The position numbers were made by a program, and so were the translations under genes. Positions 7,803 through 33,117 of a stretch of DNA of 38,283 nt are shown here, piece by piece. The number at the start of each line of letters is the position of its first letter. Position 1 is the stretch's first letter. The DNA comes from a virus: the UHGV virus genome UHGV-1369770, one strand, 5' to 3'. Below the pieces are notes generated by a model, which did not search any database, was not told the origin of the DNA, and worked only from the letters and a program-made list of their open reading frames with translations.

Positions 7803-8231
7803 ATGCTTTTATCTGATGTACCCTATGCTATTGAAGAATTAAAACAGAAATATGGAACCAATGATCCGTTTGAAATAGCCGAGAAAAAAGGAATCATTAT
7901 TCTCTATGGCTATTTTGGGAATGAAGTGTATGGGTTTTATAATAAATTCCGTAGACAAAAGTTTATTCATTTAGATGCTGAATTAGATGATAATGAACAA
8001 AATTTTGTCTGCGGCCATGAGTTATTTCATGCTGTCTTTCATCCAGATGAAAACACGGCAAAAATGACAGCAAACAGTTTTTGCTCGACTTCAAAAATAG
8101 AAGCACAAGCAAATTGTGGTTCTACTTATCTTCGAATTGATGGCACCCATATGAATGAGTTGTATATTCCGACTAAACAAGACATACTAAACTTTTATGG
8201 TCTCCCTCCAGAAATGGAAAGGTACTTATAA
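7803..8231 (+). CDS. ImmA/IrrE-family zinc metallopeptidase (anti-repressor protease)
   Basis: HEXXH motif (CGHELFHAV). 142 aa. Directly downstream of the HTH repressor. AGGAGGTG SD. Confidence 0.75.
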   Translation: MLLSDVPYAIEELKQKYGTNDPFEIAEKKGIIILYGYFGNEVYGFYNKFRRQKFIHLDAELDDNEQNFVCGHELFHAVFHPDENTAKMTANSFCSTSKIEAQANCGSTYLRIDGTHMNELYIPTKQDILNFYGLPPEMERYL

Positions 8232-8277
8232 TTTTTTGAATGTAGACGAACATGAGTTTTTGAAAGGGGTTTTATAC

Positions 8278-9423
8278 ATGGCAATGATAAAACAGTATCA
8301 AAAGAAAAACGGGGAGAAAGCATGGTATTTTAAGACGTACCTTGGAATTGATCCATTAACTGGAAAAAAGAGGTATACAACTAAGAGAGGTTTTCGAACG
8401 CAGAAAGAGGCAAAAATTGCCCTTGCGAGACTAGAAGTTCTAGCTACAGATAAAGAGTTATTGAAAGAGACTAGTTATACTTTTGCGCAGGTAAAAGATA
8501 TGTGGATGGAACAATACAAGCCTACGGTAAGAGAAAGCACCTATTTACGTGTTAAGTTTTTATTTGATAAAAACATTTCAGTTTATTTCGGAAATAAAAA
8601 AATCCAAAGCTATAACATAGCTTACTGCCAAGAAACTATTAATAAATGGAAAGAGCAATATTCTACCTACAAAGCTTTAAAGAGTTATACATCTGCAGTT
8701 TTTGATTATGCGAAAAAGATGAAGCTTATTAAAGATAATCCCATGAAAGAAGTGACTTTTTCAAAAGGTGATCGAAAACGTAAAAAAGATAAAATAAAGT
8801 ACTTCGAAAAAGAAGAATTACAAAATTTTCTTAAATGCTGCCAAAAAGACAAATTTCCTTTAACTTATCCTTTATTCAGGATTCTAGCTTTTACTGGAAT
8901 GCGAAAAGGAGAAGCTTTAGCTTTAACTTGGGACGATGTGGATTTTTTTAATAAAACGATTGAGATTAATAAAACAGTCGTAAGAAATTCAGATAATAAA
9001 TTAGTCACCACGCCCCCTAAAACAGATACATCTAACCGAAAAATTTCACTGGATGATGAAACGCTTAATACTTTGAGGGATTGGCAAACTCAACAAAAAA
9101 GATATTTACTTATACATGGTCAACATGTTAAAACAAAGGAACAAATAATTTTTTCTTCTAAAAATAATAACTACATCGATATAACCCGACCAAATACCGT
9201 TTTGTCTCGGATCTGTAAAGAATATGATTTTAACGACATTACAATACACGGATTTCGGCATACACATTGTAGTTTATTATTTGAAGCTGGCTTATCTGTC
9301 AAAGAAGTACAGGAAAGACTAGGACATTCAGATATTCACACAACAATGAATATTTACACACATGTAACTAAAAAACAAAAAGAAAGGTCTGCCGATAAAT
9401 TTGCAGCCTATTTAAATTTTTGA
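8278..9423 (+). CDS. int: tyrosine integrase (phage integrase family with N-terminal arm-type DNA-binding domain)
   Basis: N-terminus MAMIKQYQKKNGEKAWYFKTYLGIDPLTGKKRYTTKRGF is the AP2-like arm-binding domain. C-terminal catalytic box HGFRHTHCSLL....LGHSDIHTTMNIYTHV carries the conserved R..HxxR..Y residues. The likely start is ATG 8278 with an AAAGGGG SD; the ORF track starts at 8197. Confidence 0.9.
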   Translation: MAMIKQYQKKNGEKAWYFKTYLGIDPLTGKKRYTTKRGFRTQKEAKIALARLEVLATDKELLKETSYTFAQVKDMWMEQYKPTVRESTYLRVKFLFDKNISVYFGNKKIQSYNIAYCQETINKWKEQYSTYKALKSYTSAVFDYAKKMKLIKDNPMKEVTFSKGDRKRKKDKIKYFEKEELQNFLKCCQKDKFPLTYPLFRILAFTGMRKGEALALTWDDVDFFNKTIEINKTVVRNSDNKLVTTPPKTDTSNRKISLDDETLNTLRDWQTQQKRYLLIHGQHVKTKEQIIFSSKNNNYIDITRPNTVLSRICKEYDFNDITIHGFRHTHCSLLFEAGLSVKEVQERLGHSDIHTTMNIYTHVTKKQKERSADKFAAYLNF

Positions 9424-9452
9424 AAAGTATGGTCAAAAGTATGGTCAATAAA
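9424..9452. repeat. tandem pair of the 10-mer AGTATGGTCA (copy 1 of 2 loci)
   Basis: aaAAGTATGGTCAaaAGTATGGTCAat starts directly after the int stop codon. Confidence 0.6.
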
Positions 9453-9625
9453 ATAAAAAAAGACTAAAAACCTTTTGTATCAAGGTTTTCAGCCTATTAA
9501 AAATCGATATAATTATTTTACTGTTATGATTTTTGTACTTTTTGACGAACTCTAATTCTTTCTAGACGCTTTAATACCGGTATTTCTTTAGTTTATTTTT
9601 TTCTGACAAGTTCCACTTTTTCATA

Positions 9626-9655: not shown

Positions 9656-9731
9656 TAAAATAATACTTTTCTTTATAAAATCTTTATTAAGTGATAGAAT
9701 TAACTTAAATTAATAAGCAGGAGTGTATGTA

Positions 9732-10280
9732 ATGGATTGGAAAAAAATAGGTAAAAAAGCTTTCGACATTAGTAAACAGGCAACTGAAAAAGGTACGAAT
9801 TCATTCCAAGATTGGAGAAATGACCCTGAACGAATTGAGCAAAATAGATTGAAAAAAGAGTTAAAAAACTATACCCCTATAGAAAGTGATAACATTTTAT
9901 TTAATGAATTAACTAACCAATGGAATTTCAAGAAAGATAAAAAAAGTATCTACTCAAAAGATGATTTGCTCGCTTTTGAATATGTAGAAAACGACATTAG
10001 TATAACTAAAGGAGGAGCTTCGCTAGGAAGAGCTGCATTGGGTGGAGCTTTACTTGGAGGCGCTGGTGCAGTTTTAGGAGGGCTTTCTGGTAAAAAAAAG
10101 ACAAAAGAAAAAGTTAAGGGTATGAAAACCGTCGTCACTTTTAAGGTTAAAAATAAAGTTAAGACCGAGACTATTTACTACTCTACAGGATCAATTGATA
10201 AATCCAGTTTTGCTTATCAAGGATTCTTAGAAAAAGCACAAAACGATTTAGCTCTCTTAAATCTTATTTCTGATAATTAA
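9732..10280 (+). CDS. moron: glycine-zipper membrane protein (about 182 aa), candidate superinfection-exclusion or lysogenic-conversion factor
   Basis: Own promoter: TTTATA, 17 nt spacer, TAGAAT at about 9670-9699. AGGAG SD 8 nt before ATG 9732. Central GGASLGRAALGGALLGGAGAVLGGLSG glycine zipper. Own terminator. Sits between int and the att tRNA. Confidence 0.5.
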   Translation: MDWKKIGKKAFDISKQATEKGTNSFQDWRNDPERIEQNRLKKELKNYTPIESDNILFNELTNQWNFKKDKKSIYSKDDLLAFEYVENDISITKGGASLGRAALGGALLGGAGAVLGGLSGKKKTKEKVKGMKTVVTFKVKNKVKTETIYYSTGSIDKSSFAYQGFLEKAQNDLALLNLISDN

Positions 10281-10320
10281 AAAAAGGCTACCTCTCGAAA
10301 TTTGAGAAGTAGCCTTTTTA
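10279..10320. terminator. bidirectional rho-independent terminator
   Basis: AAAAAA GGCTACCTCTC GAAATTT GAGAAGTAGCC TTTTT. It ends the moron transcript on the plus strand and lies just downstream of the tRNA 3' end on the minus strand. Confidence 0.75.
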
Positions 10321-10324
10321 GCTA

Positions 10325-10398
10325 TGGACCATACAGGACTCGAACCTGTGACCTAACCGTTATGAGCGGTTGGCTTTAACCAACTGAGCTAATGGTCC
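10325..10398 (-). tRNA. tRNA-Met (anticodon CAT), 74 nt, no encoded CCA
   Basis: Folded by eye: acceptor GGACCAT/ATGGTCC, D arm GCTC..AAGC, anticodon stem AACCG/CGGTT with loop CTCATAA, T arm ACAGG TTCGAGT CCTGT. The 3' end faces the integrase, as in the 3'-end tRNA insertion pattern. Confidence 0.85.
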
Positions 10399-10428: not shown

Positions 10429-10824
10429 TTAGTTCGTACCTTCGTAGTTAATATTTTCATAAATATTTAAATTGCGCGGCAAATTTAACATATCAGATAA
10501 CAATAACGATAAAGTATTTGAGGCTTTATTAATTAACGGCTCAGATAAATCTTGGAGATTTATTTTAGTATATTCAGTTAAATTTAGGTCTGCTTCTTCT
10601 TCAGCTTTTTCTAACACATGAATTGTGCCAATAACCTCAATCTCCATCAGAATATTAGTATCAACCATATAGACTTCTACTTTTACATTAACCCTATCAT
10701 TTTCTTTAAATAATATTTCATCTTCTTGTATTGATACTGCAACTTTATTTAAGTCTTCTTTATCAACATTTTCTGCATGCAATCTATTTATAACTATATT
10801 ATCTAACCGATACATATTTTTCAT
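10429..10824 (-). CDS. SecB-like chaperone of a TAC module (131 aa)
   Basis: Alternating hydrophobic beta-strand pattern (YRLDNIVINRLHAENV; VNVKVEVYMV; MEIEVIGTIHV) followed by a helix LINKASNTLSLLLSDMLNLPRNL. This resembles the SecB fold. The start overlaps the antitoxin 3' end. Assignment made by eye, not by search. Confidence 0.45.
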   Translation of the reverse strand: MKNMYRLDNIVINRLHAENVDKEDLNKVAVSIQEDEILFKENDRVNVKVEVYMVDTNILMEIEVIGTIHVLEKAEEEADLNLTEYTKINLQDLSEPLINKASNTLSLLLSDMLNLPRNLNIYENINYEGTN

Positions 10825-11275
10825 TCATTGAAACCCCATTTCTTGGTTTGAATACCGAATGCCTGATGTTCTTATTTTTTTTACAACCTGATTTATGAGT
10901 TCTAGTAGTTTTATTTTCTTCTGTTTTCAATAATACATGAAACGATAATTCGCTAGGATTAAATTCTTTTACTGATTCAAATTTTTTTGTTTCCTTATTC
11001 ATTTTTGCTTCAAATAATTCTAATATACCAAGGTTGTCTATCTTATTCATCAACTCATTATAATCCGAAAGTTTCAACTCTGCTTTTCCATACTCATAAC
11101 ATAAATATTCCTCGGGAGTTAAGTTTAGCACACGTGAAAAATCATATACATCTAATTCTTTTTCCATTCTTTTTTTTATAATTTCGATAGATAACTGTCT
11201 TGTATTTGTATACAACTCGTCATAAATTTTAGGCTGGTGTTTTTTTAATAGAGTTTCATATTTAACATAACTCAT
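10799..11275 (-). CDS. HigA-like XRE-HTH antitoxin with a long low-complexity C-terminal extension (candidate chaperone-addiction segment)
   Basis: HTH (LSIEIIKKRMEKELDVYDFSRVLNLTPEEYLCYEYGKAEL). A Lys/Asn-rich tail of about 70 aa follows it. The likely start is ATG 11275 with GGAGAG 7 nt upstream. Overlaps the toxin gene by 14 nt. Confidence 0.55.
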   Translation of the reverse strand: MSYVKYETLLKKHQPKIYDELYTNTRQLSIEIIKKRMEKELDVYDFSRVLNLTPEEYLCYEYGKAELKLSDYNELMNKIDNLGILELFEAKMNKETKKFESVKEFNPSELSFHVLLKTEENKTTRTHKSGCKKNKNIRHSVFKPRNGVSMNEKYVSVR

Positions 11276-11762
11276 GATGATTCTCTCCAATCCAAAATTT
11301 CATTTTTTCTATACTTTCTTGCATCTCGTTATCAATAAATACACTCTCTCCAGAAGCTACATTGGTAACATCGGATTCTTTTCGTCCGTCTTTTGAAAAA
11401 CCATAGGACAAAAAATATGTATTTTCTAAACAACTATTTACAAAAAATAGAATTCTATGTTTTAGGTATTCTTCATTCAATCTAATTTCATAAATACCTT
11501 CATATCCTTTGATTTGTTTTACAATTAAGGTCTCTCTGCACATTCCCATTCTATCAAACGTAGGTATTTTGATTGGGAATAAAGCTTGATTACCATTTAT
11601 ATCTATTATCGTTTTATTGTCAGAGGAATATAAAGATAAATTTTTTATAATTTGATCTAAGGTTTTGCTTACATGGTCGTCAAACTTTATTTGCGTTGAA
11701 ACAAATTTTTCAGCCAATACTAACTCATTTCTTTTGTTATTTATAATAAATATACCTTGCAT
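11262..11762 (-). CDS. HigB/RelE-superfamily (Gp49/DUF891-like) toxin (166 aa)
   Basis: C-terminal half has GIYEIRLNEEYLKHRILFFV....TYFLSYGFSKDGRK. This matches the HigB/Gp49 pattern G.YElR..g.yRi.f........lL.aF.KK. AAGGAG SD 6 nt upstream. Gene order is toxin first. Confidence 0.55.
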   Translation of the reverse strand: MQGIFIINNKRNELVLAEKFVSTQIKFDDHVSKTLDQIIKNLSLYSSDNKTIIDINGNQALFPIKIPTFDRMGMCRETLIVKQIKGYEGIYEIRLNEEYLKHRILFFVNSCLENTYFLSYGFSKDGRKESDVTNVASGESVFIDNEMQESIEKMKFWIGENHHELC

Positions 11763-11799
11763 AGGTTACTCCTTACAAATCTTTTATCATAATACCTAT

Positions 11800-11880
11800 T
11801 ACTATTAAAAATATAACACTCAACCATTTTCTATGCAATAAAAACATCGCCTACCGCCATTTGAAAAATGGCATAAAAAC
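11800..11880 (-). promoter_or_regulatory. promoter of the TAC operon plus a 17-bp perfect palindrome (candidate antitoxin operator)
   Basis: Minus strand: TTGCAT, 17 nt spacer, TATATT about 45 nt upstream of the toxin ATG. Palindrome GCCATTT-GAA-AAATGGC at 11863-11879, just upstream of the -35. Confidence 0.35.
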
Positions 11881-11968: not shown

Positions 11969-11999
11969 AAAAAAAGAGCCACCTTGGGGAAGGTGACTC
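11969..11999 (-). terminator. rho-independent terminator ending the late/lysis operon
   Basis: Minus strand: GAGTCACCTT CCCC AAGGTGGCTC followed by TTTTTTT. Located 60 nt downstream of the endolysin stop. Confidence 0.7.
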
Positions 12000-12059: not shown

Positions 12060-13145
12060 TTAATACCCAGTACCCCACGTGTTGGTTGGGTTGCCGTCGT
12101 TTGGACCAACTGGGATATAAATCCGAGTTCCGTTTGAATCAGAACCACCTAGCCAAACATAGCCGTCTGACACATGAACCGAATCATATCTAAATTGAGA
12201 CCCCTTCGGCCATACTCCGTAAATTGGCGCATACAAACTAGATGATCCAGTACGCAACACAATGCCTTCATTTACACCAATAGTGAATGTTTTAGCTGGT
12301 GCTGGTTTACTGTTTTTCCAAAGCTCCGCAATATCGCCATCGTTCGCATAACCTAAAAGTTTACCGCTATTTTCAACACGATATAGGTTTTTACGGCCAT
12401 TTAGTTTTTGCGTAATGGTTCCAACTTGCGTCCACAGTGTATCTGCGTTGATATGCTGTGAAATTGGTGCGTCTGGATTTTTGTATATAGTAGTGAATCG
12501 GATATTTTGCCCAACTTTATATTTTGGTGCGTTCGGCTTGCCAGGGTTTACAATAACATCCGAGCCATCTTCTGGAAGTCCTGTTTGTAAATCTTGTGCA
12601 AACTGTGCCTTACTAATCCCCCAAGATGCCAAATAGCCATAAGGGTCTGTGTGATTTCCACCTAAATTGTTTGTCACCCACAAATGAGTTTTTATGCCGT
12701 AGCCTGTCGGATCGTCTAAATCAAACGTCACATTAATTTGACGTGCTAAATCACGTAATAAGTTAACGTAAGCTGCATAGTCTTTCTTAAACATAGCTTT
12801 ATCTGAAGTATTGGCTAATTCGACTTGTGCATAAGCATAAGGGTTTGCATCTCCTGCTCCCCAAGCTATACGACCGTTTTCCGCTACCTGAAGCACACGC
12901 CCCCCTCCACCTACAACATATTGCGTAAACGCTTCTTGTCGTTGCCAGTTGTTAAGCATGTTATTGGCTTCGTTTTCTACACCAGCGTCCATATTTGCAG
13001 TATCATGCGCAATGATGTATCGATTAACTGTTGATGGCCAACCTGCGTTAATATTTCCGCGGGTTTCTACTTGGTAAGCATCTACATTGATTGCGGGCAT
13101 AAAAAATAGAGCGACAAGCGCTCCAACTAAAATTTTCTTTTTCAT
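12060..13145 (-). CDS. endolysin: N-acetylmuramoyl-L-alanine amidase (Amidase_2/PGRP) with N-terminal secretion signal and C-terminal SH3-like wall-binding repeats
   Basis: MKKKILVGALVALFFMPAINVDAY signal-like N-terminus. Amidase_2 core (YIIAHDTANMDAG...GRIAWGAGDANPYAYAQVELA). C-terminal GYVWLGG...RIYIPVG SH3b-like motifs. Confidence 0.8.
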   Translation of the reverse strand: MKKKILVGALVALFFMPAINVDAYQVETRGNINAGWPSTVNRYIIAHDTANMDAGVENEANNMLNNWQRQEAFTQYVVGGGGRVLQVAENGRIAWGAGDANPYAYAQVELANTSDKAMFKKDYAAYVNLLRDLARQINVTFDLDDPTGYGIKTHLWVTNNLGGNHTDPYGYLASWGISKAQFAQDLQTGLPEDGSDVIVNPGKPNAPKYKVGQNIRFTTIYKNPDAPISQHINADTLWTQVGTITQKLNGRKNLYRVENSGKLLGYANDGDIAELWKNSKPAPAKTFTIGVNEGIVLRTGSSSLYAPIYGVWPKGSQFRYDSVHVSDGYVWLGGSDSNGTRIYIPVGPNDGNPTNTWGTGY

Positions 13146-13379
13146 TTATTTGTCTCCTTTTCTATCTGATAATCCAGGCGTTGTATGGTCTGTCACAATT
13201 CCTAAAATAGTTAATACAACAAACACTGCATTGACAACATCTAACAGCTGCTGATTAATCACATCAATTTGAAATTTATACCCAAAAGGGACTGCAACTA
13301 CTTGAACAAGTAGCAAAACTGCAGGAATAAGAGACAACCAGAATTGTTTATTTTTTATTCTTGATTTCCAATCAATCAT
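13146..13379 (-). CDS. holin (phage_holin_1 / LL-H-type), about 78 aa from the internal ATG
   Basis: MIDWKSRIKNKQFWLSLIPAVLLLVQ... matches the N-terminus of lactococcal phiLC3-type holins. GGAGG 8 nt upstream of ATG 13379. The ORF track extends to 13448, but that longer form lacks an SD. Confidence 0.65.
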   Translation of the reverse strand: MIDWKSRIKNKQFWLSLIPAVLLLVQVVAVPFGYKFQIDVINQQLLDVVNAVFVVLTILGIVTDHTTPGLSDRKGDK

Positions 13380-13596
13380 TTTTATTTCCTCCAATTCCTC
13401 GAAAGAGGGTTTTATTTTGTTCTTCCAATCGACTAATGCGCACTTCATGGTTATTTAATCGGTCAACAGCCTGTTTTAGTTCTTTCATGCTATCTTCTAA
13501 TTGAGAGAAGACATGATAGAATTTCATTAATGCGAAGATAATTCCGCTTAAAAATGTAATCACCGCTAACCATTGTTCTAGTGTTAAGTTCATCAT
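13372..13596 (-). CDS. small membrane/coiled-coil protein (XhlA-like holin-associated), 74 aa
   Basis: N-terminal TM (LEQWLAVITFLSGIIFALMKF) plus C-terminal coiled coil. Directly upstream of the holin. Confidence 0.4.
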   Translation of the reverse strand: MMNLTLEQWLAVITFLSGIIFALMKFYHVFSQLEDSMKELKQAVDRLNNHEVRISRLEEQNKTLFRGIGGNKND

Positions 13597-32296: not shown

Positions 32297-32468
32297 AAAG
32301 ATTTATATTAGACTGCCTAGCCAATCTAACACTTATTTAACAATACTAGGTTGCTAGCCACTTTATCCTGTTTCCGCAGGCTGGCTAATTCTGAAAGGAG
32401 GTGAACCGATCGTTAAAGTAAGAAACATTTATTGACGATTTTTTTATTTAAGTAGCTATGCTACCTAT

Positions 32469-32540
32469 TGGCGTGACAGGATTCGAACCCGCATCTTATC
32501 TCACACGAAGTAAGTTGCATTACCACAATGCTACACGCCA
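32469..32540 (-). ncRNA. tRNA-like element (possible degenerate tRNA-Arg, UCG anticodon)
   Basis: Minus strand: TGGCGTG TA GCAT TGTGGTA ATGC ... GCGGG TTCGAAT CCTGT CACGCCA. Perfect 7-bp acceptor stem, D arm with GG, canonical T loop. The anticodon arm is weak (4 bp plus mismatch, loop CTTCGTG) and the T stem has two G.U pairs. Confidence 0.4.
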
Positions 32541-33117
32541 AACCAGAAGGAGCGACCTTCTAGCAATTGCTAATAAATCAAATTAACCTTTACACACTCT
32601 CGTCAGAATGTTTTCCCTTCAGGACGTAGCTTTCGCAGACTTTCACGGCTAAAATGATTATGTCACTGGCAAGGATTTGCACCTTGTATGGTCTATATTC
32701 CACCACAGTGACCAATCAATCAAACACCAGCAAAAACAATTGATTAAGTTTATCCTAAACGTACCTAGCTGCTACTCTATGAGTTTAGGAATTGCTCTCG
32801 TGCATAAGCAGCTGCCGCAGAGTTCTGGTTAGTGTCATATCTTCAGATGCTGGGCTAAAATACCGCGCCTAGCCTCGCTTACTACGCTTTACCTTGCGTA
32901 AGGTAGTTACTGCATCTCTAGTAACTATTTGTCACTTGCAAACCTGTAGAAAAAAAGAGAAGGCTCTTCACCTCCCCTCTAAGAGAACGTATCAGTTTGC
33001 GAGTGATAGTGTGATCAGTGTTAGCAACGAGATAATATTTATTTTTGATTTCCTTACACTTCTCACACTACTAATTTACCATGTGAAATAACCTCGATAG
33101 TGCACAAATAGTGCAAA
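32541..33117 (-). ncRNA. candidate large structured non-coding RNA (about 580 nt, ROOL/GOLLD-like) between the ArpU-like gene and the tRNA-like element
   Basis: No ORF of 60 aa or more on the operon strand. GC visibly elevated (about 45-50% against about 35% flanking). Many local hairpins, e.g. TAGTTACT-loop-AGTAACTA, GTCACTG...CAGTGAC, CAAGG...CCTTG, and AGAAGG tcgct CCTTCT directly abutting the tRNA-like 5' end. Confidence 0.35.

What the first reader, a model, noticed from the sequence alone, without database searches (positions are those of the whole stretch)
10429..11880. Predicted tripartite toxin-antitoxin-chaperone (TAC) module at the lysis-to-att hotspot
Three overlapping minus-strand genes with their own promoter follow the late-operon terminator, immediately 5' of the att tRNA. 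The first is a HigB/RelE-like toxin (GIYEIRLNEEYLKHRILFF...TYFLSYGFSKDGRK). The second is a HigA-like XRE-HTH antitoxin with an unusually long disordered Lys/Asn-rich C-terminal tail of about 70 aa. The third is a small protein whose strand/helix pattern resembles SecB. Toxin-antitoxin-SecB order, plus a chaperone-addiction-like extension on the antitoxin, is the architecture of TAC systems, best known from the M. tuberculosis HigB1-HigA1-SecB-like system. A phage-borne TAC in the cargo position next to attP would be a candidate abortive-infection, prophage-stabilisation or anti-defence module. A 17-bp perfect palindrome (GCCATTT-GAA-AAATGGC) sits just upstream of the -35 as a likely autoregulatory operator.
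Basis: partly seen in the sequence, partly recalled or inferred. Interest (0 to 1): 0.7.

Follow-up and report, generated by a model that had tools for sequence, protein, structure and literature searches.

The report
Phage toxin–antitoxin–chaperone module in Enterococcus
An Enterococcus faecalis temperate phage carries, right after its lysis genes, a three-gene cassette that looks like a very divergent toxin–antitoxin–chaperone (TAC) system, a kind already known from Mycobacterium and E. coli prophages but not yet described in enterococcal phages.

Summary
The three overlapping minus-strand genes, the upstream terminator, the palindrome and the tRNA are all at the stated coordinates.

- **Toxin.** Gene 1 (11262-11762) belongs to the Gp49/HigB branch of RelE toxins. 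A profile-profile match to real Gp49 sequences gives probability 92%, E 6e-7, and all controls score far lower.
- **Antitoxin.** Gene 2 (10799-11275) has a weakly supported XRE-type HTH domain. It is followed by a 71-aa basic, polar, poorly conserved tail studded with aromatic residues.
- **Chaperone.** Gene 3 (10429-10824) models as a four-strand plus long-helix fold. Its best solved matches are only SecB-like proteins, including the M. tuberculosis TAC chaperone Rv1957.
- **Context.** The gene-3 family is rare. Its members sit third in such operons behind prophage lysis genes, once behind an MqsA-family antitoxin with a 130-aa extension.

The TAC reading is supported, on computational evidence only. 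Standard HMM libraries miss all three proteins. Two details are not supported. The palindrome is not conserved as an operator. The tRNA-Met is not the attachment junction of this phage, although it travels with the trio.

I rate it a new member of a known kind, of moderate interest.

The parts
11976..11999 (-). Intrinsic-terminator-like hairpin that ends the late/lysis operon, 60 nt after the endolysin stop
   Evidence: 10-bp stem with 5 GC pairs, followed by a T-run. The endolysin is identified.
11856..11872 (.). Perfect 7+3+7 palindrome GCCATTT-GAA-AAATGGC. Candidate operator, unproven.
   Evidence: Searches show it is unique in the window. One search shows modest significance. It is not conserved upstream of the related module.
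11810..11838 (-). Candidate sigma-70-type promoter: -35 TTGCAT (11833-11838), 17-nt spacer, TG-extended -10 TATATT (11810-11815). The spacer contains a third AAAATGG half-site (11824-11830).
   Evidence: Read from the sequence. The half-site repeat is (I5). The consensus scan did not flag it.
11262..11762 (-). p1, 166 aa: Gp49/HigB-type RelE-superfamily toxin candidate. The core is residues about 79-137 (nt 11352-11528), with an internal insertion and a C-terminal extension relative to the 103-121-aa Gp49 proteins.
   Evidence: The RBS AAGGAG lies at 11769-11774.
10799..11275 (-). p2, 158 aa from the ATG (163 from the TTG at 11290): antitoxin candidate with an XRE-like HTH N-terminal domain and a C-terminal tail.
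10802..11014 (-). Region encoding the 71-aa p2 tail, the candidate chaperone-addiction (ChAD) element. It is basic and polar, with aromatic patches SFHVLL, RHSVFKPR and KYVSVR.
   Evidence: One search gives composition and aromatic positions. One search shows the tail is the variable part of the family.
10429..10824 (-). p3, 131 aa: SecB-like fold chaperone candidate.
10325..10398 (-). tRNA-Met(CAT), same strand, with no terminator between it and p3. It is linked to the trio in three diverged Enterococcus lineages. Its role is unknown.
10281..10319 (-). Strong terminator-like hairpin (16-bp stem) that closes the trio+tRNA unit.

Best explanation
The trio is a tripartite toxin-antitoxin-chaperone (TAC) module of the HigBA-SecB type, carried as lysogen-expressed cargo between the lysis genes and the integration module of an E. 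faecalis temperate phage.

Proposed working, with every step inferred from known TACs:
1. p1 is a Gp49/HigB-type, ribosome-dependent mRNA endonuclease.
2. The N-terminal XRE-like domain of p2 binds and neutralises p1 and probably represses the operon.
3. The 71-aa aromatic/basic tail of p2 makes it aggregation- and protease-prone unless p3, a SecB-like holdase, holds that tail.
4. If p3 is diverted, p2 is lost and p1 shuts down translation. In the E. coli HigBAC and CmdTAC systems the diverting agent is unfolded structural protein of an infecting phage.
5. The result would be abortive infection or superinfection exclusion that protects the lysogen population. Stabilisation of the prophage would be a by-product.

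Shown here: gene order and overlaps, family assignment of p1, the SecB-like predicted fold of p3, the domain-plus-variable-tail build of p2, and the conserved genomic context.

Inferred: toxicity, neutralisation, chaperone dependence, the trigger and the biological role.
For: **p1 (toxin)**
- The profile of 7 family members against an alignment of 9 real Gp49/HigB proteins (N15 gp49 and phage homologues) gives hhalign probability 92%, E 6.4e-7, over 95 columns spanning p1 residues 3-137.
- Reversed sequences, unrelated alignments and 30 column shuffles score at most 16.4, against 34.6-45.4 for the real comparison.
- Five of six family members give Pfam Gp49 as their best match or only match, in the same register. 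The family consensus scores 21.5 bits, E 2.5e-4.
- Five of the seven invariant Gp49 residues (E, R, R, F, K) fall on invariant p1-family residues E92, R94, R103, F122 and K124.

**p3 (chaperone)**
- The AF2 model has pLDDT 75.5 and pTM 0.69, with four strands and a long helix.
- The top 11 Foldseek PDB hits are all SecB-like. Phage proteins named SecB rank 2 and 3 in the viral library.

**p2 (antitoxin)**
- The conserved N-terminal domain of about 90 aa gives weak HTH_19/HTH_3 hits in 4 of 7 members, at the same residues.
- hhalign against HigA/XRE proteins scores 26-28, against 16 or less for controls.
- The tail is the variable part of the family, 66-116 aa long. It carries basic/aromatic patches like the SecB-binding motifs described for ChAD elements (PMC5105189; 10.1101/2024.02.24.581848).

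**Context**
- In 8 lineages the p3 homologue is the last gene of a p1-p2-p3 operon with overlapping starts, mostly just after prophage holin/endolysin genes.
- In another lineage it follows an MqsA-family antitoxin (TIGR03830, 66.7 bits against a cut-off of 61.8) that has a 130-aa C-terminal extension. A chaperone shared among TA families is the TAC hallmark (PMC5105189).
- The depositors of phage EH-TP1 reached the same three labels.
Against: - No protein reaches a curated threshold in Pfam, NCBIfam, PHROGs or PADLOC.
- The p1 structure prediction failed (pLDDT 39), so its RelE fold rests on sequence profiles only.
- The p3 family shows no sequence-level similarity to SecB. No member hits Pfam SecB at E of 1 or less, the PDB profile search is empty, and hhalign against 9 proteobacterial SecBs scores 14.0, within the control range.
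- The p3 model comes from a 4-sequence alignment and has only moderate confidence.
- The HTH assignment of p2 is weak (probability 24-36%).
- Disorder of the tail and its binding to p3 were not computed.
- The palindrome is not conserved in the 57-82%-identical sister module.
- There are no experimental data of any kind.
Confidence: 0.75

Rival explanations
1. The locus is an ordinary two-component HigBA-like toxin-antitoxin pair, and the third gene works on something else, for example as a general or phage-morphogenesis chaperone. The long antitoxin tail would then have another role.
For: - The link between p3 and the p2 tail is inferred, not shown.
- The closest structural matches of p3 are stand-alone SecB-like proteins of streptococci (2o2a, 2hng), which are not known to be TA-linked.
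- One family member (P0039) is solitary and fused to an HTH domain.
Against: - p3 homologues are translationally coupled to the tailed antitoxin gene in every operon seen.
- They reappear behind an unrelated MqsA-family antitoxin that also carries a long extension.
- That pattern is hard to explain unless p3 works on the antitoxin.
Confidence: 0.1
2. The locus is an anti-defence (Acr/Aca-type) or other regulatory cargo locus. p2 would be an Aca-like HTH repressor, and p1 and p3 would be inhibitors of host immunity rather than a toxin and a chaperone.
For: - The position is a classic cargo (moron) hotspot with an HTH gene.
- None of the proteins hits a defence-system model.
Against: - p1 aligns over its whole length to Gp49/HigB toxins and keeps their invariant E/R/R/F/K residues.
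- Toxin-then-HTH order is the HigBA arrangement (PMC3581621, PMC11980606).
- p3 has a SecB-like fold.
- Aca genes usually follow small, unrelated acr genes rather than a RelE-family gene (my own knowledge).
Confidence: 0.05
3. The trio is a degenerate or domesticated RelE-like module. p1 would no longer be a nuclease, and the trio would act as a transcriptional or lysogeny-control device.
For: - p1 is 45-60 aa longer than canonical Gp49 proteins, with an insertion and a C-terminal extension.
- It scores below the Pfam threshold.
- Two Gp49-invariant positions (the second K and the T of the KKTQKT motif) are not kept.
Against: - The p1 family is conserved across genera, with invariant residues at five Gp49 invariant positions.
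- The complete three-gene operon is maintained in hundreds of E. faecalis assemblies.
Confidence: 0.08

Closest known systems
M. tuberculosis TAC: HigB1-HigA1-SecB^TA (Rv1955-Rv1956-Rv1957)
   Same: - Same gene order: toxin, antitoxin, chaperone.
- The toxin is of the Gp49 Pfam family (PMC11980606).
- The antitoxin is an XRE-HTH protein with a C-terminal extension carrying aromatic/basic motifs (PMC5105189).
   Different: - No detectable sequence similarity for any of the three proteins.
- p1 is about 40 aa longer.
- The tail is 71 aa here, against about 45 aa.
- The host is a Firmicute phage rather than a mycobacterial chromosome.
- A tRNA-Met gene is attached to the operon.
E. coli prophage HigBAC (strain NT1F31) and CmdTAC anti-phage systems
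   Same: - Prophage-borne TACs located in variable cargo/defence loci.
- A long ChAD (96 aa in HigBAC) with spaced aromatic residues.
- The chaperone acts as the sensor of incoming phage structural proteins (10.1101/2024.02.24.581848; PMC11618068).
- This is the mechanism proposed here.
   Different: - Those chaperones are recognisable SecB homologues.
- The hosts are Enterobacteria.
- The HigBAC locus lies next to cI rather than after the endolysin.
- CmdT is an ADP-ribosyltransferase, not a RelE-type toxin.
Enterococcus phage EH-TP1 gp4-gp3-gp2 (PQ571301.1)
   Same: - Homologous trio: 33%, 31% and 24% identity to p1, p2 and p3.
- Same position after the endolysin, with a tRNA-Met nearby.
- Already annotated as RelE/ParE toxin, XRE regulator and SecB.
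   Different: - It is annotation only. No paper was found in the library searched.
- The sequences are very diverged, and the toxin is annotated as 192 aa.
Phage N15 gp49-gp48 (chaperone-less HigBA prototype)
   Same: The toxin family and the toxin-then-HTH order match. The p1 family aligns to a Gp49 alignment headed by N15 gp49.
   Different: - No third gene, and no antitoxin tail (gp48 is 95 aa).
- gp49 is 103 aa.
SP1558 / gbs1413 (PDB 2hng, 2o2a): stand-alone SecB-like fold proteins of streptococci
   Different: - No sequence similarity was detected.
- They are deposited as proteins of unknown function, and no TA link is known to me.

Membership tests
TAC (toxin-antitoxin-chaperone) system | Three co-oriented genes in one operon: a type II toxin, its antitoxin and a SecB-like chaperone. 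| tested here: met
   - The ORFs overlap by 14 and 26 nt.
- The same order recurs in 8 lineages.
TAC (toxin-antitoxin-chaperone) system | The antitoxin carries a C-terminal extension (ChAD) that is variable in length and sequence and contains aromatic/basic SecB-binding-like motifs. | tested here: met
   - The tail is 71 aa beyond the conserved domain.
- Family tails are 66-116 aa and poorly conserved.
- Aromatic/basic patches are present.
- The criteria come from PMC5105189 and 10.1101/2024.02.24.581848.
TAC (toxin-antitoxin-chaperone) system | The same chaperone family is associated with more than one TA family (HigBA, MqsRA, HicAB). | tested here: met
   The p3 homologue P0028 follows an MqsA-family antitoxin (TIGR03830, 66.7 bits against a cut-off of 61.8) that has a 130-aa extension.
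TAC (toxin-antitoxin-chaperone) system | Toxin neutralisation requires the chaperone, and removing the ChAD abolishes that dependence. | not testable with these tools
   This needs expression assays.
Gp49/HigB toxins (Pfam PF05973, RelE/ParE superfamily) | Score above the Pfam gathering threshold (23.9 bits). | tested here: not met
   - p1 scores 13.3 bits.
- Family members score 12.3-19.1 bits.
- The family consensus scores 21.5 bits.
Gp49/HigB toxins (Pfam PF05973, RelE/ParE superfamily) | Profile-level homology to bona fide members, with the conserved ExR...R...FxK motif residues. | tested here: met
   - hhalign gives probability 92%, E 6.4e-7, over 95 columns.
- Controls score at most 16.4.
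- E92, R94, R103, F122 and K124 are invariant.
Gp49/HigB toxins (Pfam PF05973, RelE/ParE superfamily) | RelE/BECR fold. | tested here: inconclusive
   The AF2 model of p1 has pLDDT 39 and is unusable.
HigA-type XRE-HTH antitoxin | A helix-turn-helix domain of the XRE (HTH_3/HTH_19) type. | tested here: inconclusive
   - Sub-threshold HTH_19/HTH_3 hits occur in 4 of 7 members at the same residues.
- hhalign gives probability 24-36%, score 26-28, against 16 or less for controls.
- p2 itself and the family consensus give no HTH hit.
SecB / SecB-like chaperones | Sequence membership in Pfam SecB (PF02556), or profile similarity to SecB. | tested here: not met
   - None of the 16 family members hits it at E of 1 or less.
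- hhalign against 9 SecBs scores 14.0, within the control range.
- E. coli SecB also fails to find Rv1957 by phmmer, so this test is insensitive.
SecB / SecB-like chaperones | SecB fold: a four-stranded antiparallel sheet followed by a long helix. | tested here: met
   - The model has strands at 5-19, 27-33, 44-55 and 58-70 and a helix at 82-113.
- The top 11 Foldseek hits are all SecB-like.
SecB / SecB-like chaperones | Tetramer (dimer of dimers) that binds unfolded clients. | not tested
   No multimer prediction was available.
Acr/Aca anti-CRISPR locus | Small acr gene(s) followed by an Aca HTH repressor, with no toxin-family gene. | tested here: not met
   The gene upstream of the HTH gene is a Gp49/HigB-family protein.

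The most novel reading that the evidence does not exclude
The module is a four-part unit rather than a standard TAC. Two ideas make up this reading.

- **The tRNA as a component.** The co-transcribed tRNA-Met(CAT) travels with the trio in three diverged Enterococcus lineages. It shares the trio's exact recombination boundaries, from the p1 RBS to the tRNA 3' end. It might buffer or tune the toxin's effect on translation.
- **Independent origin of the chaperone.** The chaperone lineage may have arisen from the Lactobacillales' own SecB-fold proteins (SP1558/gbs1413 type) rather than from proteobacterial SecB. That would mean chaperone addiction evolved independently in Firmicute phages.
Probability: 0.12. 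Interest if true: 0.7.

Novelty: new member of a known kind. Interest (0 to 1): 0.45.

Why it matters
TAC systems are known from M. tuberculosis and were recently shown to be prophage-borne anti-phage sensors in E. coli. I found no description of one in enterococci or their phages in the library searched.

- **Hidden from standard tools.** This module is invisible to Pfam, NCBIfam, PHROGs and PADLOC. It is nevertheless present in several hundred E. faecalis contigs and moves between prophages that carry three unrelated endolysin types.
- **Practical relevance.** If it works like HigBAC, it is a superinfection-exclusion determinant that could limit therapeutic phages against E. faecalis.
- **Broader picture.** It would extend chaperone addiction to a very divergent SecB-like lineage in Gram-positive bacteria, which lack a canonical SecB export pathway.

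Tried and rejected
- **Direct HMM scans.** Scans of the three proteins against Pfam, PHROGs, PADLOC and NCBIfam gave nothing significant.
- **PDB sequence searches.** Profile searches with all three family alignments returned only chance hits.
- **p1 structure.** The AF2 prediction from a 3-sequence alignment gave pLDDT 39 and was discarded. No fold search was run on it.
- **p1 against a single Gp49.** hhalign of the p1 family against N15 gp49 alone found nothing. The match appeared only with an alignment of 9 Gp49 proteins.
- **p3 against SecB.** hhalign of the p3 family against 9 housekeeping SecBs gave no signal above controls.
- **Related loci.** A genome scan with P0029 found nothing. The afdb50 library was not available.
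- **Operator test.**
  - Inverted repeats upstream of distant homologous operons show no shared motif.
  - The sister module, which has a nearly identical predicted recognition helix, has an unrelated upstream region with different palindromes such as ACAATATATTGT.
  - The operator idea is therefore left unsupported.
- **tRNA as attachment site.** This is rejected for this phage on the lysogen junctions.
- **L002 toxin.** The 118-aa gene upstream of the MqsA-like antitoxin in L002 could not be assigned by Pfam, NCBIfam or PDB. Its MqsR-like C-terminus is my own recollection only.
Full report
**What is in the sequence**

The window is a circularly permuted temperate siphophage genome of Enterococcus faecalis.
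- Its late genes run on the minus strand and end with a holin (13146-13448) and an Amidase_2/SH3_5 endolysin (12060-13145).
- A cI-like repressor, an ImmA-like peptidase and a tyrosine integrase (8197-9423) lie on the plus strand.

After the endolysin the minus strand carries, in order:
- a terminator-like hairpin (11976-11999);
- a 210-nt AT-rich spacer;
- three overlapping ORFs: p1 11262-11762 (166 aa), p2 10799-11275 (158 aa from ATG; 163 aa from an upstream TTG) and p3 10429-10824 (131 aa);
- a tRNA-Met(CAT) 30 nt later (10325-10398);
- a strong hairpin terminator (10281-10319).

p1/p2 overlap by 14 nt and p2/p3 by 26 nt, and each gene has a plausible Shine-Dalgarno sequence. The 17-bp palindrome is at 11856-11872 and is unique in the window.

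**The proteins are invisible to standard libraries**

Pfam, PHROGs, PADLOC and NCBIfam give nothing significant. The only hint is Gp49 (PF05973) at E 0.088 on p1 residues 79-126. Word-indexed homology searches found only Enterococcus proteins.

An exhaustive HMMER search with a p3 profile found only 16 cluster representatives at E of 1e-3 or less among 1.84 billion proteins. The chaperone-like family is therefore rare. The module itself is common in E. faecalis: the exact p1 cluster is recorded on 204 contigs, and exact p3 variants on 65, 102 and 37 contigs.

**A homologous, already-labelled trio**

tblastn found one phage relative, Enterococcus phage EH-TP1. It has the same three genes directly after its endolysin. 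Identities to p1, p2 and p3 are 33%, 31% and 24%. Its depositors annotated them as RelE/ParE toxin, XRE regulator and SecB, the last from a structure alignment. I found no paper on this phage.

**p3 has a SecB-like fold**

An AF2 model from a 4-sequence alignment reached pLDDT 75.5 and pTM 0.69. It has four strands (5-19, 27-33, 44-55, 58-70) and a long helix (82-113).

Fold searches gave these results.
- The first 11 Foldseek hits are SP1558, gbs1413, SecB and Rv1957.
- In the viral structure library, phage proteins named SecB rank second and third.

Sequence-level tests are negative. However, E. coli SecB does not find Rv1957 by phmmer either, so that negative carries little weight.

**p1 is a Gp49/HigB-type toxin homologue**

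The p1 structure prediction failed (pLDDT 39), so I used profiles instead.
- I collected p1 homologues from the neighbourhoods of p3 homologues (alignment A8).
- I built an alignment of real Gp49 proteins: N15 gp49 and eight phage or prophage relatives.
- hhalign gives probability 92%, E 6.4e-7, with 95 aligned columns over p1 residues 3-137.
- Reversed sequences, unrelated alignments and 30 column shuffles never exceed score 16.4, against 34.6-45.4 for the real pair.
- The Gp49-invariant E, R, R, F and K coincide with p1-family invariants E92, R94, R103, F122 and K124.
- Five of six family members have Gp49 as their best match or only match in Pfam, in one register. The family consensus reaches 21.5 bits, against a cut-off of 23.9.
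- Relative to the Gp49 alignment, p1 has a roughly 20-aa insertion and a 30-aa C-terminal extension with a conserved WIG motif.

M. tuberculosis HigB1 belongs to this same Pfam family, whose members are ribosome-dependent mRNases (PMC11980606).

**p2 is a domain plus a variable tail**

The family shares an N-terminal domain of about 90 aa, followed by a 66-116-aa tail that barely aligns.
- The domain gives sub-threshold HTH_19/HTH_3 hits at the same residues in 4 of 7 members.
- It aligns in the correct register to HigA/XRE proteins: score 26-28, probability 24-36%, controls 16 or less. I regard the HTH as likely but not proven.
- The window's tail is 71 aa, 24% Lys+Arg and 27% Asn/Ser/Thr/Gln.
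- The tail has aromatic patches at F117 (SFHVLL), F147 (RHSVFKPR) and Y159 (KYVSVR).
- This is the character reported for ChAD elements: variable, with aromatic/basic SecB-binding-like motifs. Examples are WHRLSSYR and WARHISVR in Mtb HigA1 and spaced aromatics in E. coli HigA (PMC5105189; 10.1101/2024.02.24.581848).
- Disorder of the tail and its binding to p3 were not computed.

**Genomic context supports a TA-dedicated chaperone**

- p3 homologues from other Firmicute-type contigs are the third gene of p1-p2-p3 operons. They usually sit just after a prophage holin/amidase and sometimes next to an integrase.
- Partial contigs show the p2-family gene upstream.
- One lineage (P0028) instead follows a bona fide MqsA-family antitoxin. 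That protein scores 66.7 bits on TIGR03830 (cut-off 61.8) over residues 8-128 of 258, which leaves a 130-aa extension. A 118-aa gene precedes it.
- One member is a solitary HTH fusion.
- A chaperone family shared by different TA families whose antitoxins carry extensions is how TACs were defined (PMC5105189, PMC3581621).

**Mobility and the tRNA**

- The identical trio follows different tail and holin genes in different E. faecalis prophages.
- A 77%-identical sister cassette follows two other endolysin types.
- Similarity between the window and the sister cassette runs exactly from the p1 RBS (11774) to the tRNA 3' end (10323).
- A tRNA-Met(CAT) also follows the trio in EH-TP1. The trio and the tRNA therefore behave as one unit in Enterococcus. 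The non-Enterococcus loci lack the tRNA.
- The tRNA is not the att junction of this phage. Lysogens L012 and L015 remain 99.6-99.9% identical to the window down to 9496, between the integrase and ORF 9723-10280. Two other prophage types lose similarity at the tRNA 3' end.

**Promoter and palindrome**

- A TG-extended -10 (TATATT, 11810-11815) with a weak -35 (TTGCAT, 11833-11838) can be read 18 nt downstream of the palindrome. The consensus scan gives no statistical support for it.
- The palindrome is modestly unusual.
- The sister module's p2 has an almost identical putative recognition helix, yet its upstream region is unrelated and carries different palindromes. Distant operons share no motif.
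- The operator idea stays a hypothesis.

**Verdict**

I put 0.75 on a HigBA-SecB-type TAC.

The most likely role is chaperone-sensed abortive infection or superinfection exclusion, by analogy with the prophage-borne E. coli HigBAC and CmdTAC (10.1101/2024.02.24.581848; PMC11618068). Prophage stabilisation is a secondary possibility.

TACs, including prophage-borne defensive ones, are established, and a homologous trio already carries these labels in GenBank. This is therefore a new, very divergent member of a known kind. The tRNA linkage and the streptococcal-type SecB-like affinity are its unusual features.

Noticed in passing
window 10325-10398 (also L025 5403-5476; L001 5634-5709): A tRNA-Met(CAT) gene follows the trio on the same strand with no terminator in between. 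This holds in three diverged Enterococcus lineages. Window-versus-sister-cassette similarity ends exactly at the tRNA 3' end, so the trio and the tRNA move as one block. Whether it is an elongator tRNA-Met or a lysidine tRNA-Ile2 was not determined.
   Followed up: partly
window about 9424-9500: The phage/host junction (attP core) of this phage appears to lie just downstream of the integrase gene. Two lysogen contigs lose identity with the window at position 9496. The tRNA and ORF 9723-10280 are therefore phage cargo.
   Followed up: partly
window 9723-10280 (+): This 185-aa ORF has a glycine-zipper-like segment (GGASLGRAALGGALLGGAGAVLGGLSG). Its copy in L012 carries a precomputed Pfam PH_gly_zipper hit. 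It lies between the attachment region and the tRNA, and its function is unknown.
   Followed up: no
L026 3425-3498: A decayed tRNA-like copy sits upstream of the sister cassette, behind a different prophage's GH25/LysM endolysin. This suggests repeated recombination or tandem insertion at tRNA-like sequences.
   Followed up: no
L030 3501-4181 (protein P0039): Here a p3-like SecB-fold domain is fused to an N-terminal HTH_28-type domain. The gene is solitary in a chromosomal context, with no toxin gene beside it. This is a different architecture for the same fold family.
   Followed up: partly
L002 1172-2685: This is a second TAC-like operon type that uses the same chaperone family. It consists of a 118-aa unassigned gene, a 258-aa MqsA-family antitoxin with a 130-aa C-terminal extension, and then the p3 homologue P0028.
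   Followed up: partly
window 32467-32541 (-): A second phage-borne tRNA gene, tRNA-Arg(TCG), lies among the early genes.
   Followed up: no
L013, L014, L025, L026 versus window 12060-13145: The same or a closely related trio sits behind three unrelated endolysin types (Amidase_2+SH3_5; a 277-aa Amidase_2; GH25+LysM) and behind different tail modules. This shows cassette exchange among E. faecalis prophages.
   Followed up: partly
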